DNA from: a virus
Taxonomy: Duplodnaviria; Caudoviricetes
Direction: 5' to 3' (one strand)
Virus record (IMG/VR): IMGVR_UViG_3300027234_000002
Location: 4,470-68,469 of that record
Length of the DNA: 64,000 nucleotides
Shown: piece after piece, positions 2,554-60,128 of the stretch
Position numbering within the stretch: the first letter of the stretch is position 1
Layout: every line of letters starts with the position of its first letter
The notes under the pieces: generated by a model
What the model was told of the DNA's origin: nothing
Seen by the model: the letters and a program-made list of their open reading frames with translations, nothing else
Database searches by the model: none
Made by a program: the position numbers and the translations under genes

Positions 2554-3528
2554 ATGGGATTAGCTGGAATAAACCAGAGTAGACAAATGTACGTAGGTCA
2601 AGCGACTGATGCTGCTACAGAAATTGCTGATTTAGCAAACGCAAATGATATTGTTGTATTAGCTGCTGACGGAAGTGAAGCTTCTGCTGGTGACGATATT
2701 GCAGTATTTGTAAAAGACTCTTTAGGAAATGTAACTTCTTCAGGAGCAATTAAAAATGATCAAATCATTGATGTAAGAGTAATTCCTTTTGAAGCTAAGA
2801 CTTTAAAAGCTTACGAAATTTCAGGATTAACAGTTGATGTTAACAGTCTTTATTCTGTCAACATTACAATTAGTGAGCACGGATCTTTATCTTCAGAAGA
2901 TGAGTACGTTAAGAAAGGTTTTTACCAAGCAAAATCAGGTGATACTGATTTATTAGTTTTACAAGGATTAGCTGCAAATTTAAATGCAAACTTCTCTAAA
3001 GAAGTTGGAGCTAACGCTTCTGCAAACCCTTACTTTTCATTTGTAGTTTCAGGAACTGCAGGTTCTGCAAAGTTGACTATTACAGAAAAAAATGACTGGT
3101 TAGTTAATTATGACCCAAACAAAAAGACTAGACATCAATTAAAATTTACTGTTGATTTTGTTGCTACAACTTATCCTACAGTAGGTGTTTCTCAAGCTCA
3201 AAGTGCAGGTAAAGGTACAGGATACCAGATTCAAGAAATGGAATTTTATTTACTTGGTGCAAGAGGAGACTCTTACAGAGAAGGTGGGTACCCTCACAAT
3301 ATTACTGGACCTAAATTAGTTTCTACTGTTGATGGTGAGTACAATGTTGTAGAGATTTCTTACTGGAATGAAGGTAGAGATGAGGCTAAGAAATCTAAGC
3401 AAGCTATAACTTTAGCATTCTTAGATGACGACACTGCTGATGGATCTAATGCTGATGTTAACACATCTGTTATTGCACCTTTAGTTACAGCTTTAGGCGT
3501 AACTTTAGCTGACCTTGACGTAGCATAG
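2554..3528 (+). CDS. Auxiliary/minor capsid protein
   Basis: NQ.RQ.YV N-terminus and G.G..I..MEFY..G.RGD.YR..GYP motif; Ala/Thr-rich; followed by a strong terminator. Confidence 0.65.
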   Translation: MGLAGINQSRQMYVGQATDAATEIADLANANDIVVLAADGSEASAGDDIAVFVKDSLGNVTSSGAIKNDQIIDVRVIPFEAKTLKAYEISGLTVDVNSLYSVNITISEHGSLSSEDEYVKKGFYQAKSGDTDLLVLQGLAANLNANFSKEVGANASANPYFSFVVSGTAGSAKLTITEKNDWLVNYDPNKKTRHQLKFTVDFVATTYPTVGVSQAQSAGKGTGYQIQEMEFYLLGARGDSYREGGYPHNITGPKLVSTVDGEYNVVEISYWNEGRDEAKKSKQAITLAFLDDDTADGSNADVNTSVIAPLVTALGVTLADLDVA

Positions 3529-3619: not shown

Positions 3620-4204
3620 ATGGCTATTACTATCCAAACATACAGTATTTCAACTGACTTGAGTGAGATAACACTAGAATTCGAATTGGATTCAGGAGAC
3701 ACTACAAGTAGTTTGTTGATGTGGACTGAAGACACATATAAAAACTCAGAAGAATCTATTAATTTATTAAGTGTGCTAGATGGCACAAGTAATACAGAAA
3801 ATGTTACTATATCTGCAGATGATGCGGGTGTTTCTACATTTGATGGAATCTATATTATAGAAATACAAAGTACTAATGGAAATGCAGTAATGGCTGGAGC
3901 CTCAGACTTCACTCAGTACTATAAAGTGGCTGCTCAGTTACTTTCAAAACTAGACCTATCGTGTTTAAGTTGCAATGATGATTTCCAAAATTCTTTACTA
4001 TTAGACTTGTATTTACAAGCTACAATAAACTCATTACTTCTTGGAAGATACCAGGATGCTATTGAACATTTATCAAAAATAAAAATAGTTAAAGAAGGCT
4101 ACACTGAATGTGAGGACTGCCTTGACATTGACATATCGGTATCAACTTCTACCAATATTGTTTCTGTTGGTATTATTGATTGTCAAATAACAGATAATGA
4201 TTAA
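3620..4204 (+). CDS. Hypothetical acidic virion protein with CxxC pairs
   Basis: 194 aa; CLSC and CEDC motifs; lies in the structural block. Confidence 0.55.
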   Translation: MAITIQTYSISTDLSEITLEFELDSGDTTSSLLMWTEDTYKNSEESINLLSVLDGTSNTENVTISADDAGVSTFDGIYIIEIQSTNGNAVMAGASDFTQYYKVAAQLLSKLDLSCLSCNDDFQNSLLLDLYLQATINSLLLGRYQDAIEHLSKIKIVKEGYTECEDCLDIDISVSTSTNIVSVGIIDCQITDND

Positions 4205-4206
4205 TT

Positions 4207-5163
4207 ATGAAGGATAAAGATGCAAAGATATTTGTAATCTCCATGAAAAATATCTCGAAAGAGCTACAATATTATGGGACTTCAAATATTAACAATATAA
4301 ACTTACTAAAACTTATTTATAAGTATGCAAAATACTTTACTGATTACAAATGCTTGCAAGCTGTTGACAAAATGGTCAACTACTTGCAAAGAAGTGACAG
4401 AAGGATATGTATGGAATTTACATATACAAAAGGATACAGTTATGAATACAACACTGTAGATATATCTGAAGTAAATACAGCACCTACACTTAGTAATGTT
4501 TCACTGACTGCAGATGACACTGGAAATAATCTAGTTATCACTTACAGTGATATGTATGGTGGATACTATGATGCTGAAGGAACTGATCCTGGAGCTATAA
4601 TCATTAGTACTATTCCTGCAAATGGGACATTATATCTTGATGGAACTGCAATTTCTGCAGGAGACACTATAGCTTATGATGCAAATCTTGAAATAGAATA
4701 TGAGAGAAATTCCAATAATGCATATTCAACATCTTTTACTTATTCAGTATACGACACAGACACTCAGTTACCACTAGTTTCTAATACTGCTACAGTATCA
4801 TTAACAGTTGAAGAAGTTTCTGTAGAAAATGAAGCTCCTACAATTGGTGACTTAACATTATATGCAGATAACAGAGCTACAGTGACTATCACTATAAATG
4901 ACATTCTATACAATGCTAGTCCAGAATATTCTGATCCAGAAGGTAATCAATTAGATGCTATTAGAATTGATGTAATTGGATCATCTAATGCAGGTGCTTA
5001 TTACTACTATGAATCTGAAATTGAAGTTGGTGCAATCATTACTTATGATGACATTGTGGCAGGAGCATTCACATATTCAGCTGCAGATCTGAATTCAATC
5101 CAAACGGATGTAATAGAGGTTTCAATTAGGGATACAGTAAATTTAGAATGGGTTTCTTCGTAA
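4207..5163 (+). CDS. Virion protein with two cadherin/Ig-like repeats (putative fibre or decoration protein)
   Basis: Repeated N.APT...Y.D.EG....I.I...P..G.(L/Y)Y....I..G..I.YD units; very acidic, rich in Thr/Ser. Confidence 0.6.
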   Translation: MKDKDAKIFVISMKNISKELQYYGTSNINNINLLKLIYKYAKYFTDYKCLQAVDKMVNYLQRSDRRICMEFTYTKGYSYEYNTVDISEVNTAPTLSNVSLTADDTGNNLVITYSDMYGGYYDAEGTDPGAIIISTIPANGTLYLDGTAISAGDTIAYDANLEIEYERNSNNAYSTSFTYSVYDTDTQLPLVSNTATVSLTVEEVSVENEAPTIGDLTLYADNRATVTITINDILYNASPEYSDPEGNQLDAIRIDVIGSSNAGAYYYYESEIEVGAIITYDDIVAGAFTYSAADLNSIQTDVIEVSIRDTVNLEWVSS

Positions 5164-56234: not shown

Positions 56235-57428
56235 CTAGTTCTTCTTCTTGTTGTTGCTAACTTTCTCAGAAAGTTCATACAATCTCTCTAATTGAAATGT
56301 TTGAAGTGCACCTCCACCATTGCCATCAGATCCTCCTGATACAATTCTAGGAAATACAATTCCACTTGGGCCAGCTAATGCTTTCATTACTCCAATCCTA
56401 GTGTCTCTTTCAATTTGAGCTTTCTCTAATGGAGATAATCCAGCTTGAACCTTAAGTTTATCACCTTCAGCTTCACCTTTCTTTAAAGCTAATATTGCTG
56501 CTGCATTTAACTTATCTCTTTTAAGATTTTGTTCTGCTACTGCTGCTTCTTTTTCTGCTCTAATAACTGCTTGAAGTTTAGATGATTCCTCTCTAGCTTT
56601 AGTTTCAGCAATTAACTTCTCACCTTTAGCTTTTTCTGTTAAAGCTTCTTGTTGAGCTGTTATTAATTGTTGTTTAGCTGTAGCTTCATCAGATGCTGCA
56701 TCAATCTTAGATTTTAATTTCTCATAAATTCTTGCATCGTATTCAACAAAATCAATTGAACTAAATGAAGCAATCATACCATAAGTTTGAATGTCTGATT
56801 GAGTTCTTAAGAAATCTCCATTATCATCAGTCTTTTCTTGAACTTTAATGTAAGTCTTTTCTGTACCATCTTCTAGTTTCCTAGTTTTAGTTTCAGTGAC
56901 TAACAATACTTGCCCTCTACGTAACTGATCTTGAAAGTATTCCTTTAATTGAGACTGTCCACCACTATAATGAGCTTCAGAAGATAATCTCTGAGTGCTA
57001 TAATTCATGGTTTCTTTTTGATACTGCAATAAGGTAGTTTTCATTAAATTATCAATACTATTATATGTAGTATGTAATTCAGTCATTTCAGTACTTTTGT
57101 TAGGTAAATCCCACTTAACAGTGTGTCCAACCATAGCTTGATCACCTTCACTAAATGTAGCAGTGTGCTCAGATGTCCAGTAATCAGCCTCTTCAGACCT
57201 TTTTGCTTTAGGACCTACTTGGATAGTTACATTGTTTGGGTAAGTTGTTACCTTTGATCTGATACCAGCATAGTAAAATCCTGGATCAAACTTAACACTC
57301 AAATCTCCTCCAAATGTCTGTATAACCTGTCTGTTACCAGCATCATTAATTGCAAATGGATTCAATGCAAATGCTACAATTAATAGCAATCCTACGATCA
57401 TGTAAATCTTAAACTTTTTGTTTTTCAT
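56235..57428 (-). CDS. SPFH/band-7 (prohibitin/flotillin-like) membrane protein
   Basis: N-terminal TM helix, ..G.R.V.QT..G.L.V...PG.Y, SPFH core and long Ala/Glu/Lys coiled coil. Confidence 0.85.
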   Translation of the reverse strand: MKNKKFKIYMIVGLLLIVAFALNPFAINDAGNRQVIQTFGGDLSVKFDPGFYYAGIRSKVTTYPNNVTIQVGPKAKRSEEADYWTSEHTATFSEGDQAMVGHTVKWDLPNKSTEMTELHTTYNSIDNLMKTTLLQYQKETMNYSTQRLSSEAHYSGGQSQLKEYFQDQLRRGQVLLVTETKTRKLEDGTEKTYIKVQEKTDDNGDFLRTQSDIQTYGMIASFSSIDFVEYDARIYEKLKSKIDAASDEATAKQQLITAQQEALTEKAKGEKLIAETKAREESSKLQAVIRAEKEAAVAEQNLKRDKLNAAAILALKKGEAEGDKLKVQAGLSPLEKAQIERDTRIGVMKALAGPSGIVFPRIVSGGSDGNGGGALQTFQLERLYELSEKVSNNKKKN

Positions 57429-57456
57429 TTTTTAATTATTTTTATAATATTAATAT

Positions 57457-58268
57457 TTTAGCACCCTTTCCCATTATTGTATTCAACTCTATCCTTGATA
57501 GAGGCAATAATGAGGGTTGGGTCATGTTTCACTGTTATTATTACCCTCGACACGAGCACTATCTATCTGCTTGATAATAATAATAACAATGTTTTTCTGC
57601 TGAGAACTCATTTCTACTGCAAACGGTAGTTAGTTTGGCACTCTCATCCTTTCTCAAGGGACCAGTAAATCTAGCATTCCTGCCAGTATCTTTATATAAA
57701 TAACAAAGAAGTTTTAACGCTTCCGACAAATGTTATTTATACAGGTATTCAATGTTTAACCTTATTTAGCACCCTCTTTCTTATTAGATGTTTTCTGTTC
57801 TCGTTTATTTCAACGCTTGTGAATTTCACACTGTAATCTAATAAGAGTAGGGTCACGTAGTTAAGTCATTGACATAAAGATAGAATCAAATCTATCTCAG
57901 TTAAAAGGTTATACCTATCTCCCTTAATCAAAACTACTTGCTGAGAACTCATTTGTGTTGTATAGAACCAATATTCTATTCTTGTATTTGACGGTATGCA
58001 CTTTCTCAAGGTGTACAACACATCCAGGATTACTCCATTACTTACGTATTAATAGGTTACTGTATTAGCCTTCACCTATAATTACCATTTACCAAGTAGA
58101 ACAATCTAATTTCTTTCTACACCTTATTAGAGCCTCTTCACTCTTTCCTCAGTAACATCCTGTCAATTCAGGATTAGTATCTTTATGTAAATGTACGGGT
58201 CAAACCCTCTTTCATACAGCATTACCTGTTAATGGACTACATTTACAAAGGTTTCAATGTTTAACCTT
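57457..58268 (-). ncRNA. Tandem duplicated three-motif structured RNA array (candidate ncRNA or long leader)
   Basis: Motif I at 58176-58268 and 57685-57763; motif II at 57939-58022 and 57598-57669; motif III at 57765-57855 and 57457-57524; identical cores, compensatory stems, no ORF in the track. Confidence 0.7.
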
Positions 58269-58342
58269 TATTTTTAGTGCTTAAATGCACAATTATGTCT
58301 CTGCTCCAGCCTATACAGTAGAAGCATTGACATTTTGATTTA

Positions 58343-58438
58343 TTATCCATTTATTATTATTCCATTAAATAAATTTGCAAACAGCAAATATAATATAACT
58401 ATTGCTATAGCTAAAGTTATTGACTCTTTTTTTTCCAT
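58343..58438 (-). CDS. 31-aa single-pass membrane peptide (not in the ORF track)
   Basis: Hand-translated MEKKESITLAIAIVIIYLLFANLFNGIIING; AT-rich start context. Confidence 0.45.
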   Translation of the reverse strand: MEKKESITLAIAIVILYLLFANLFNGIIING

Positions 58439-58456: not shown

Positions 58457-58966
58457 TTAAATACCTTCACCACCAGTAAAGATGTAACTCCCAGAGCCAG
58501 CAACTTCCCTAGAAATAGCAATGTTTTTTTGACTTCTTGCTTCGACATGATTTCCTAATGCTTTTAAAAATTCTGCTTTAAAGAATAAGTACTTTGTACT
58601 ATCCATTTCATTTATTTCCTCTTTGAATCTTAATAGAAAATCTGTAACATTTGAATGCTCATCTCTACTATTATCAATTTCAAGTTTGATATCGTAATAT
58701 CCGTCTTTAAATTTCCTGAAATCTAATTGATTAAATAAATCTGCAAACTTGTTCTTTCCATGTAATACTGTAGCATGGTCTACTTTTGCTTGCCTTCCTA
58801 TGGCTGTCAATGAATATCCTTCATCCAATCCTAATCTGTAGAAGACATATCTTGCCCACACATAACCAGTTTCTCTTGTTTTCTTTGATATATCATTGAT
58901 CTTAAAATACTTACCTACTAAATCTTGTAGTGTTTTTAAGCTAAGTTCACTTCCTTTTTTACTCAT
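58457..58966 (-). CDS. Stand-alone DnaA domain IV (Bac_DnaA_C)-like HTH protein
   Basis: DI.KKTR....V.AR.VF....SL..IG....DHATV.HG, matching the DnaA C-terminal signature. Confidence 0.75.
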   Translation of the reverse strand: MSKKGSELSLKTLQDLVGKYFKINDISKKTRETGYVWARYVFYRLGLDEGYSLTAIGRQAKVDHATVLHGKNKFADLFNQLDFRKFKDGYYDIKLEIDNSRDEHSNVTDFLLRFKEEINEMDSTKYLFFKAEFLKALGNHVEARSQKNIAISREVAGSGSYIFTGGEGI

Positions 58967-60027: not shown

Positions 60028-60128
60028 AGAGGTAGATAGGATTTGAACCTATACAAAAACATTGACTAGTTATCTTTGTTTTTATCATTCCCAAACGGGA
60101 ATATGCTTTACCAATTTGCTACTACCTC
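60028..60128 (-). ncRNA. tRNA-like RNA (101 nt) without a canonical anticodon loop
   Basis: Acceptor GAGGTAG/CTACCTC, D-arm GCAAATTGGTAAAGC, T-arm ATAGG-TTCAAAT-CCTAT; anticodon position is a 7-bp stem closing GTTT; ~33-nt extra arm. Confidence 0.6.

What the first reader, a model, noticed from the sequence alone, without database searches (positions are those of the whole stretch)
57457..58268. Tandemly duplicated three-motif structured RNA unit with compensatory changes and variable inserts
Seen (- strand): motifs in the order I-II-III repeated twice, with the two units abutting (unit 1 58268-57765, unit 2 57763-57457). Motif I is AAGGT-TAAACATTGAA(T)-ACCT, then a long stem (TGTAAATGTA/TACATTTACA vs TATAAATAACA/TGTTATTTATA) with an unrelated apical insert, then TAAAGATAC. 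Motif II is a crossing-stem pseudoknot (see separate finding). Motif III is TGACCC-(T/A)AC, a stem (TCTTATTAGA/TCTAATAAGA vs CATTATTG/CAATAATG) with an unrelated insert, then AGGGTGCTAAA. Cores are nearly identical, while stems differ in sequence but keep their pairing. Extra multibranch domains lie between motifs (e.g. GTTACTG/CAGTAAC at ~58058-58156). There is no ORF of 60 aa or more in ~1 kb. Inference: a selected RNA architecture, either a phage ncRNA array processed into units (anti-defence decoys, or scaffolds with variable apical loops that could act as guides) or a very long regulatory leader for the SPFH gene. I do not recognise it as a named family.
Basis: partly seen in the sequence, partly recalled or inferred. 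Interest (0 to 1): 0.82.

Follow-up and report, generated by a model that had tools for sequence, protein, structure and literature searches.

The report
Two tandem phage structured RNA genes
The gene-free 0.8 kb holds two different copies, head to tail, of an intricately folded RNA that at least 118 uncultured phage contigs carry, normally as one copy; RNA catalogues do not list it, one cultured phage makes it in large amounts, and its function is unknown.

Summary
On the minus strand, 58268-57765 and 57763-57456 each carry the same ordered set of near-identical motifs. These are joined by stems that differ in sequence but still pair.

The two units belong to a large family restricted to viruses. 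Rfam 15 has no match.

The minimal fold is about 145 nt. It consists of a P1 hairpin (loop UAAACAUUGA), a UAAAGAUAC linker, a P2 hairpin (loop AGUAAU), and a three-way junction P3/P4/P5. The P4 loop UUGAGAA pairs with a downstream UUCUCAG to form a pseudoknot. A P6 hairpin and a GCUAA tail follow. P2, P3 and P4 covary strongly (0 of 500 shuffles reach the observed score). The pseudoknot is invariant, so covariation cannot test it.

The only full copy in a cultured phage lies in Cellulophaga phage phi14:2, in a region reported as an abundant, stable, unexplained early transcript.

No neighbouring protein gene is conserved, so the leader reading fails, and the "SPFH" label on the downstream gene is unverified. 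tRNA and tmRNA genes often flank the RNA on the same strand.

All 48 other records with a hit carry exactly one copy. The two units here are as different as random family members, so they are two subtypes. Earlier notes of this scan had flagged the same family on other DNA.

The parts
57765..58268 (-). Unit 1: full RNA gene, subtype A (the 5' strand of P2 is interrupted by an inserted domain), about 504 nt
   Evidence: Sequence, motif coordinates, R1 hit at 57908-58074 with E = 1.2e-5. Nearest relatives are L004, L042, L056, phi14:2 (L001) and L012.
57456..57763 (-). Unit 2: full RNA gene, subtype B (simple P2 hairpin), about 308 nt
   Evidence: Sequence, motif coordinates, R1 hit at 57574-57721 with E = 2.4e-8. 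Nearest relatives are L098, L114 and L024.
58248..58268 (-). Unit 1 P1 hairpin: AAGGU / loop UAAACAUUGAA / ACCUU
   Evidence: Across the family the P1 stem has alternative sequences that still pair (CUCC/GGAG, ACCGCU/AGCGGU, GCUCG/CGAGU and others).
58186..58247 (-). Unit 1 P1b long stem (UGUAAAUGUA/UACAUUUACA) with a variable apex
   Evidence: Inverted repeat I15, 10 of 10 paired. Family test: mean helix run 5.9 against 4.1 in chimeras. RNAalifold recovers the helix.
58177..58185 (-). Unit 1 linker UAAAGAUAC (conserved, single-stranded)
   Evidence: Direct repeat D3. Conserved in alignments A4 and A5.
58024..58177 (-). Unit 1 P2 with its insert. Outer pairs CUA...UGG and inner GG/CC close the AGUAAU loop. 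The insert is the hairpin AUCCUG-AAUUGA-CAGGAU (58174-58157) plus a variable hairpin closed by GUUACUG/CAGUAAC (58156-58150 with 58062-58056).
   Evidence: The same insert head occurs in phi14:2 and L012. The split-P2 reading is my inference from comparing the subtypes in A4.
57954..58022 (-). Unit 1 three-way junction. P3 is UGUGUUG/CAACACA. P4 is a hairpin at 58015-57997 with loop CUUGAGAAA. P5 is a variable hairpin.
   Evidence: Covariation of P3 and P4 across 103 distinct sequences.
57941..57953 (-). Unit 1 AAUGAG plus the pseudoknot 3' strand UUCUCAG. It pairs with the P4 loop UUGAGAA at 58009-58003.
   Evidence: Complementarity is visible in the sequence. Both strands are invariant in 103 sequences. 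The 3' strand is unchanged in 16 of 17 members found through independent anchors. No covariation is possible.
57857..57937 (-). Unit 1 optional hairpin P5x (GUAGUU/AACUAC base, variable apex)
57765..57853 (-). Unit 1 P6 hairpin (ACCCU/AGGGU base, UCUUAUUAGAU/AUCUAAUAAGA extension, variable apex) and GCUAA tail
   Evidence: Inverted repeat I12, 11 of 11 paired.. The same module stands alone in Cellulophaga phage phi4:1.
57686..57763 (-). Unit 2 P1 (AAGGU / UAAACAUUGAAU / ACCU), P1b (UAUAAAUAACA/UGUUAUUUAUA) and linker UAAAGAUAC
   Evidence: Inverted repeat I11, 11 of 11 paired..
57600..57686 (-). Unit 2 core. P2 is CUGGC-AGGAAU-GCUAG. P3 is UUUACUG/CAGUAGA. P4 is at 57662-57646 with loop UUGAGAA (57657-57651). 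Then come P5, AAUGAG and the pseudoknot strand UUCUCAG (57606-57600).
   Evidence: The P3 sequence differs from unit 1 at 5 of 7 pairs but still pairs.
57456..57591 (-). Unit 2 P5x (CAUUGUUAUUAUUA/UAAUAAUAACAGUG), P6 (CCUCAUUAUUG/CAAUAAUGGG) and tail GGGUGCUAAAA
   Evidence: Inverted repeat I6..

Best explanation
The stretch encodes two separate, non-identical genes of one widespread structured RNA family found almost only in viruses. This is the family of the abundant 'g004-g005 junction' transcript of Cellulophaga crAss-like phage phi14:2.

Shown:
- Each unit folds into a compact core. P1 and P2 are hairpins with invariant loops. A three-way junction follows, and the P4 loop can pair with an invariant 3' strand to make a pseudoknot. 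A P6 hairpin with an invariant GCUAA tail closes the unit.
- Variable hairpins sit at five peripheral positions.
- The helices are kept by compensatory changes. G-U pairs fix the RNA strand as the window's minus strand.
- The family normally has one copy per phage genome.
- No neighbouring protein gene is conserved.
- tRNA and tmRNA genes lie beside the RNA on the same strand in many loci.

Inferred:
- The units are made early as part of a stable-RNA transcript and trimmed like tRNA and tmRNA precursors.
- They persist as nuclease-resistant folded particles that act in trans.
- About 70 unpaired or invariant nucleotides are identical in phages with genomes of 43 to 373 kb, and tmRNA/tRNA genes are the usual neighbours. 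So the most likely partner is a conserved part of the host's translation or RNA-processing machinery, not a phage-specific sequence. I put this last step at only about 0.3.
- The two units are as divergent as random family members. I read them as two subtypes kept side by side (an old duplication or a second acquisition), not a recent repeat.
For: - Motifs and stems are at the stated coordinates.
- A covariance model built from six other phages finds both units and nothing else in the genome.
It hits only 2 MAG contigs in 185,579 species genomes.
- 103 distinct P2-to-pseudoknot segments are 96% paired. The covariation score is 0.467 against 0.116 in shuffles (0 of 500 reach it), and slid controls give about 40% pairing.
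- RNAalifold on 19 full-length members independently recovers P1b, P2, P3, P5x and P6a.
- Anchored helix tests for P1, P1b, P5x and P6b beat chimera controls.
- phi14:2 carries one full copy at 2910-3362. Two long intergenic regions of phi14:2 are reported as transcribed above most protein genes, from the earliest sample on, without later decline (bioRxiv 10.1101/2020.03.07.982082).
- 85 of 87 nearby tRNA/tmRNA genes are on the same strand. 16 of 120 loci have a tmRNA 96-826 nt downstream of motif II (14 of them within 423 nt).
- tmRNA scores over Rfam's cut-off in 14 of 50 records that carry the RNA. In 7 of those 14 it lies under 200 nt downstream.
- Several loci start a few nucleotides after a tRNA 3' end.
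- No neighbouring protein family is conserved.
- One copy in each of 48 other records.
- The two units are 58% identical in the core segment, against a family median of 60%.
Against: - No direct evidence shows what the RNA binds or does.
- Assigning the phi14:2 copy to the 'g004-g005 junction' is inferred from gene order. The paper's tables were not available.
- The tmRNA link could reflect shared ancestry of tRNA-rich phages. 6 of 15 near-complete genomes with the RNA have no tmRNA match at or near Rfam's cut-off.
- The pseudoknot rests on complementarity and invariance only.
- Transcription of this particular window has not been shown.
- No promoter or terminator signal stands out.
Confidence: 0.65

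Rival explanations
1. The RNA is a self-processing ribozyme. The invariant pseudoknotted core would cleave (or ligate) RNA to release itself and the neighbouring tRNA or tmRNA from a polycistronic stable-RNA precursor. The abutting units in this window would be cut apart at the GCUAA / AAGGU joint.
For: About 70 invariant nucleotides sit in loops and junctions around a pseudoknot, which is typical of catalytic cores. The RNA sits inside tRNA/tmRNA transcription units. The two units abut with no spacer.
Against: No Rfam ribozyme family matches even at E <= 10. Host RNase P, RNase Z and RNase E already explain the processing of such operons (established knowledge). The phi14:2 RNA accumulates stably, which suggests it has a job after processing. 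No cleavage site can be named from the sequence.
Confidence: 0.12
2. The RNA is an anti-defence decoy or sponge. A stable, early RNA would soak up a host immunity or stress protein, for example a nuclease that targets tRNA or tmRNA. The variable peripheral hairpins would be tuned to different hosts.
For: Expression in phi14:2 is early and persistent. The family is nearly absent from cellular genomes, including their prophages. It sits next to phage tRNA/tmRNA genes, which themselves can counter tRNA-directed defences (established knowledge of phage tRNA function). The peripheral inserts vary.
Against: The core is almost invariant across phages with very different genome sizes. That fits a universally conserved target better than fast-evolving defence proteins. 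No defence-related neighbour genes recur.
Confidence: 0.12
3. The RNA is a cis-acting leader or riboswitch. It would control the 397-aa gene just downstream (56235-57428, minus strand).
For: Unit 2 ends only about 27 nt before that gene's ATG, on the same strand.
Against: Downstream genes differ from locus to locus, and no protein family recurs in more than 15 of about 119 loci. The next gene is often a tRNA or tmRNA. P6 is not followed by a U-run, and no expression platform is visible. The downstream protein shows no SPFH domain.
Confidence: 0.04
4. The region is a DNA-level element (replication origin or packaging site), or a chance cluster of repeats.
For: It is AT-rich, repeat-bearing and gene-free.
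Against: Many G-U pairs would be A-C mismatches on the other strand, for example UG:32 and GU:15 at one P2 pair. Compensatory changes occur in five helices. The phi14:2 transcript is abundant.
Confidence: 0.02

Closest known systems
Abundant 'long non-coding RNA' of Cellulophaga crAss-like phage phi14:2 (g004-g005 junction; Drobysheva et al., bioRxiv 10.1101/2020.03.07.982082)
   Same: It is homologous. phi14:2 positions 2910-3362 carry every motif in the same order, including unit 1's P2 insert. The transcript is early, rightward, very abundant and stable. A tmRNA gene follows about 0.7 kb downstream.
   Different: phi14:2 has one copy and this phage has two, of different subtypes. The paper reports only a transcribed intergenic region. 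It gives no fold, no family and no function. Mapping the copy to 'g004-g005' is my inference from gene order.
ROOL and GOLLD large ornate RNAs (Rfam RF03087, RF01998)
   Same: They are large, intricately folded, of unknown function, associated with phages, and often lie beside tRNA genes (established knowledge).
   Different: There is no match to either model at E <= 10. The core here is much smaller (about 145 nt). The family is almost absent from cellular genomes (2 of 185,579 species), whereas ROOL and GOLLD are common in bacterial chromosomes and prophages. No multimer-forming palindromic loops are evident.
Phage T4 small stable RNAs of the tRNA gene cluster (species 1 and 2; rnaC, rnaD)
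   Same: They are phage RNAs of unknown function, encoded among tRNA genes, co-transcribed with them and processed to stable species (established knowledge). The genomic setting is comparable.
   Different: Homology was not tested here, because no T4 sequence was fetched. The T4 RNAs are shorter, and I know of no report of this pseudoknotted three-way junction in them.
tmRNA (Rfam RF00023)
   Same: It is a pseudoknot-rich stable RNA. It is the commonest immediate downstream neighbour on the same strand.
   Different: This RNA has no tRNA-like acceptor/T-arm domain, no tag reading frame and no RF00023 match in the region. It is a separate gene.

Membership tests
Unnamed phage RNA family typified by the phi14:2 g004-g005 transcript | The ordered invariant motifs: P1 loop UAAACAUUGA, linker UAAAGAUAC, P2 loop AGUAAU-like, P4 loop CUUGAGAAA, AAUGAG-UUCUCAGC, GACCCUAC...GGGUGCUAA | tested here: met
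   Both units carry all the motifs in order. Unit 2's P2 loop is AGGAAU, a single-base variant.
Unnamed phage RNA family typified by the phi14:2 g004-g005 transcript | Match to a covariance model of the core built from other phages | tested here: met
   R1 gives E = 2.4e-8 for unit 2 and 1.2e-5 for unit 1.
Unnamed phage RNA family typified by the phi14:2 g004-g005 transcript | Helices P2, P3 and P4 kept by compensatory change | tested here: met
   15 of 16 variable pairs show changes on both sides, and 0 of 500 shuffles reach the covariation score. The two units differ at 5 of 7 P3 pairs yet both pair.
Unnamed phage RNA family typified by the phi14:2 g004-g005 transcript | Pseudoknot between the P4 loop and the 3' strand | tested here: inconclusive
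   There is 7-bp complementarity in every member, but both strands are invariant. The one variant found (L135) has an uncompensated A-C mismatch.
ROOL / GOLLD / HEARO / OLE / raiA (large bacterial and phage structured RNAs in Rfam) | Match to the Rfam covariance model | tested here: not met
   No hit in the region at gathering score or at E <= 10, nor in two minimal members.
Group I self-splicing intron (RF00028) | Rfam match, a P3-P7 core with a G-binding site, and insertion in a host gene with exons that join | tested here: not met
   There is no RF00028 hit. The elements lie between genes, or between tRNA genes, not inside a reading frame. The motif order does not fit the P/Q/R/S elements; this last point is my own reading of the sequence.
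Riboswitch or cis-regulatory leader | A conserved downstream gene class and an expression platform | tested here: not met
   No neighbour protein family recurs. The element is often followed by a tRNA or tmRNA. No terminator follows P6.
Small self-cleaving ribozymes (hammerhead, twister, pistol, hatchet, HDV-like) | Rfam match and site-specific self-cleavage | tested here: inconclusive
   No Rfam match. Catalysis cannot be tested with these tools.
tmRNA (RF00023) | tRNA-like domain plus a tag reading frame | tested here: not met
   ARAGORN and Rfam find none in the region.

The most novel reading that the evidence does not exclude
The family is a new functional class of phage RNA. It would be either a catalytic RNA or an RNA that docks on the ribosome or the trans-translation machinery, and phages would deploy it together with their own tmRNA and tRNA sets to take over host translation. 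This phage would be the first seen to keep two specialised paralogues (subtypes A and B) side by side.
Probability: 0.15. Interest if true: 0.9.

Novelty: new variant of a known kind. Interest (0 to 1): 0.68.

Why it matters
Large, highly conserved structured RNAs without a known function are rare, and past examples have led to new biochemistry. This family has an unusually invariant pseudoknotted core. At least 118 IMG/VR contigs carry it, from phages with genomes of 43 to 373 kb, and it is almost absent from cells. One culturable phage-host pair (phi14:2 and Cellulophaga baltica) makes it in large amounts, so its function can be tested directly by deletion, pull-down and structure work.

Its frequent position just upstream of phage tmRNA genes gives a concrete lead towards translation or RNA processing. 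The tandem pair of two subtypes in this window is a natural experiment on whether the subtypes are redundant.

Tried and rejected
- Rfam at gathering and E <= 10 thresholds, on the region and on two minimal members: only noise.
- Group I intron reading, prompted by GUGCUAAA and AAGAUA strings that resemble the intron's conserved core elements: rejected. The motif order is wrong, there is no Rfam hit, and the elements are intergenic.
- RNase P RNA reading (GAGAAAG resembles conserved region I): rejected. In RNase P RNA the P4 helix pairs in a different register, and there is no Rfam hit.
- SPFH leader: rejected.
- A terminal helix closing the 5' and 3' ends (UUAGCACC with GGUGCUAA): present only in L087, so it is not a family trait.
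- A kissing interaction between the P1 and P2 loops: loop variants show no correlated change, so it stays undecided.
- Guide or antisense idea: no shared exact stretch of 14 nt or more with the rest of the window.
- Promoter and terminator scans, and k-mer enrichment upstream and downstream: nothing consistent.
- Literature search by motif strings and by phage tmRNA terms: nothing relevant.
- One viral scan was wasted on a mistyped spacer.
- MAFFT on whole elements misaligned the ends, so I used segment alignments and anchored tests instead.

Full report
**1. The observation**

Read on the minus strand, 58268-57456 contains two abutting units with the same ordered motifs. The order is:
- a hairpin AAGGU / UAAACAUUGAA(U) / ACCU(U);
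- a perfect 10-11-bp stem whose sequence differs between the units (UGUAAAUGUA/UACAUUUACA against UAUAAAUAACA/UGUUAUUUAUA);
- the linker UAAAGAUAC;
- a domain with CUUGAGAAAG ... AAAUGAGUUCUCAGCA;
- GACCC(U/A)AC, then a stem that again differs (UCUUAUUAGAU/AUCUAAUAAGA against CCUCAUUAUUG/CAAUAAUGGG), then (A)GGGUGCUAAA.

Unit 1 is longer because of extra hairpins, including GUUACUG/CAGUAAC (58156-58150 with 58062-58056). There is no ORF of 60 aa or more under table 11. TGA=W gives only a 94-aa frame and TAG=Q gives frames of 62-67 aa.

**2. It is a member of a large family**

BLAST against cultured phages found one full homologue, in the crAss-like Cellulophaga phage phi14:2 at 2910-3362. It lies under three tiny, surely spurious 'hypothetical' ORFs.

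The same pattern hit only two MAG contigs among one genome each of 185,579 prokaryote species. So the family is essentially confined to viruses and is not a prophage trait.

In 90 loci the other motifs lie at the expected places, and the elements span 140-510 nt.

Rfam 15 has no match at gathering score or at E <= 10. This holds for the window region and for two compact members. Full-text searches for the motif strings found only unrelated primers.

**3. The fold**

The smallest members (about 145 nt, for example L048:997-1141) define the core:
- P1, a hairpin with loop UAAACAUUGA;
- an A-rich linker;
- P2, a hairpin with loop AGUAAU;
- P3, which closes a three-way junction holding P4 (loop CUUGAGAAA) and a variable P5;
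- AAUGAG, then UUCUCAG, which is complementary to UUGAGAA in the P4 loop and forms a pseudoknot;
- P6 (ACCCU/AGGGU), then GCUAA.

Larger members add hairpins at fixed sites. These are a long stem after P1 (P1b), an insert in P2, a bigger P5, a hairpin between the pseudoknot and P6 (P5x, base GUAGUU/AACUAC), and an extended P6.

On a MAFFT alignment of 103 distinct P2-to-pseudoknot segments, 96% of cells pair. The covariation score is 0.467 against 0.116 in shuffles (0 of 500 reach it). Sliding the partners by 1-3 columns drops pairing to about 40%. All pairs of P2 and P3 and three of the four P4 pairs show changes on both sides. Frequent G-U pairs fix the RNA strand.

RNAalifold on 19 full-length members, given no structure by me, recovers P1b, P2, P3, P5x and P6a. 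Anchored helix tests against chimeric controls support P1, P1b, P5x and P6b.

The pseudoknot cannot be tested this way. Both strands were fixed by the search pattern. In 17 true members fetched through independent anchors (P1 loop, linker, P2 loop), the P4 loop never varies. The 3' strand varies once, without compensation.

**4. Evidence that it is made**

[quoted passage not shown] The authors leave their function open.

The left end of phi14:2 has exactly two such gene-free regions. The first holds this RNA and the second holds a tmRNA gene. The assignment is my inference, because the paper's tables were not available.

**5. Context**

Clustering all ORFs within 4.5 kb of the element in about 120 loci shows no linked protein family. 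The best family occurs in 15 loci. This rules out a leader for a particular gene.

It matches only PHROG families of unknown function or 'lipoprotein', and it has no sequence relative in the PDB.

Stable-RNA genes, by contrast, are frequent neighbours:
- 44 of 120 loci have a tRNA or tmRNA within 3 kb, and 85 of 87 such genes are on the same strand.
- 16 loci have a tmRNA 96-826 nt downstream of motif II, 14 of them within 423 nt.
- Some elements begin a few nucleotides after a tRNA 3' end.
- Over whole records, tmRNA passes Rfam's cut-off in 14 of 50, and in 8-9 of 15 near-complete genomes.
- In 7 of those 14 records the tmRNA lies under 200 nt downstream of the element.

The near-complete genomes range from 43 to 373 kb, so the family is not limited to crAss-like phages.

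This window itself looks like a crAss-like genome. It has very large plus-strand proteins, a minus-strand replication arm, and tRNA genes 1.8 kb upstream of the RNA on the same strand.

**6. What is special here**

The core model finds exactly one copy in each of 48 other records, including 14 near-complete genomes. It finds two in this genome.

The two units are 58% identical over the core segment. That is no closer than the family median of 60%, and each unit has nearer relatives in other phages.

Unit 1 is the phi14:2-like subtype A. Its P2 5' strand is interrupted by a conserved hairpin (AUCCUG-AAUUGA-CAGGAU) plus a variable one. Unit 2 is subtype B, with a plain P2.

So this is not a recent tandem repeat. 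It is two diverged paralogues or two acquisitions, joined with no spacer.

**7. Mechanism**

What is shown: a conserved, strand-specific, pseudoknotted RNA fold that is independent of neighbouring protein genes and is encoded with stable RNA genes.

What is inferred: the RNA is cut out of a stable-RNA precursor, persists, and acts in trans. The near-invariance of about 70 loop and junction nucleotides across very different phages points to a conserved partner. Given the neighbours, I favour the host translation or RNA-processing machinery, at about 0.3.

Rivals are a self-processing ribozyme and an anti-defence decoy (about 0.12 each). A cis leader (0.04) and a DNA element (0.02) are largely excluded. 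The region shares no exact stretch of 14 nt or more, complementary or identical, with the rest of the phage genome, so a guide role against phage mRNAs has no support.

**8. Novelty**

The transcript was seen in phi14:2 but was never described as a fold or a family. Rfam does not list it, and I found nothing in print.

Earlier notes of this scan had flagged the same family on other DNA and pointed me to the phi14:2 paper. I checked that paper myself.

I rate it a new variant of a known kind, namely orphan structured phage RNAs such as ROOL, GOLLD and the T4 stable RNAs. The two-subtype tandem is a new observation.

Noticed in passing
window 60028-60128 (minus strand): Rfam calls a second tRNA here (39.7 bits, 101 nt) that ARAGORN does not report. 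It has a good acceptor stem and T arm (GGTTCAAATCC). Its anticodon arm looks odd (ATTCCC-GTTT-GGGAAT), and a long extra segment of about 35 nt follows. It could be an intron-bearing or otherwise unusual tRNA.
   Followed up: partly
window 58339-58434 (minus strand): A 31-codon ORF (MEKKESITLAIAIVILYLLFANLFNGIIING) encodes a hydrophobic, probably membrane-spanning peptide. It lies between the DnaA-HTH-like gene (58457-58966) and unit 1, so the truly non-coding gap before unit 1 is only about 70 nt.
   Followed up: no
L121 2490-2575 (Cellulophaga phage phi4:1, KC821632 about 131485-131570; same in phi17:2): These 145-kb Cellulophaga phages carry only the P6 module (TGACCCTAC-stem-AAGAGGGCGCTAA). 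It sits after a gene whose 3' end matches the phi14:2 gene upstream of the full RNA. So P6 plus tail can stand alone, either as a deletion remnant or as an autonomous processing or protein-binding hairpin.
   Followed up: partly
L131 612-690: This is a 5' fragment of the family. P1, P1b, the linker and P2 are nearly identical to L130, and then unrelated sequence follows. It points to recombination breakpoints inside the element.
   Followed up: no
L007, L028, L054: about 50 nt just upstream of P1: A recurrent upstream module (TAGCTAAGCTGTGTAAAGCGTCAGAACTTATAATCTGTTAGAAGCTAT) has an anticodon-arm-like hairpin. It may be a tRNA-like element or another RNA module.
   Followed up: no
L011, L048, L021, L062 and others (minimal-type members): The motif ATCTGTTGAC occurs about 25 nt before P1 and again about 60 nt after the GCUAA tail. 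There it precedes another conserved non-coding block (CCGTGCTACAGGTTGCCTGCAGGGAATAG ... CTGGGAAAGACTAG). It looks like a phage promoter that repeats in front of successive RNA modules.
   Followed up: no
L001 about 4035-4505 (phi14:2): The second 'long non-coding RNA' region of phi14:2 (g005-g006 junction) is a tmRNA gene by ARAGORN. GenBank annotates it only as tiny hypothetical ORFs gp011-gp014.
   Followed up: partly
It has no Band 7/SPFH hit in Pfam and no sequence match in the PDB. It matches PHROG 11908 (unknown function) and, weakly, PHROG 200 ('lipoprotein').
   Followed up: partly
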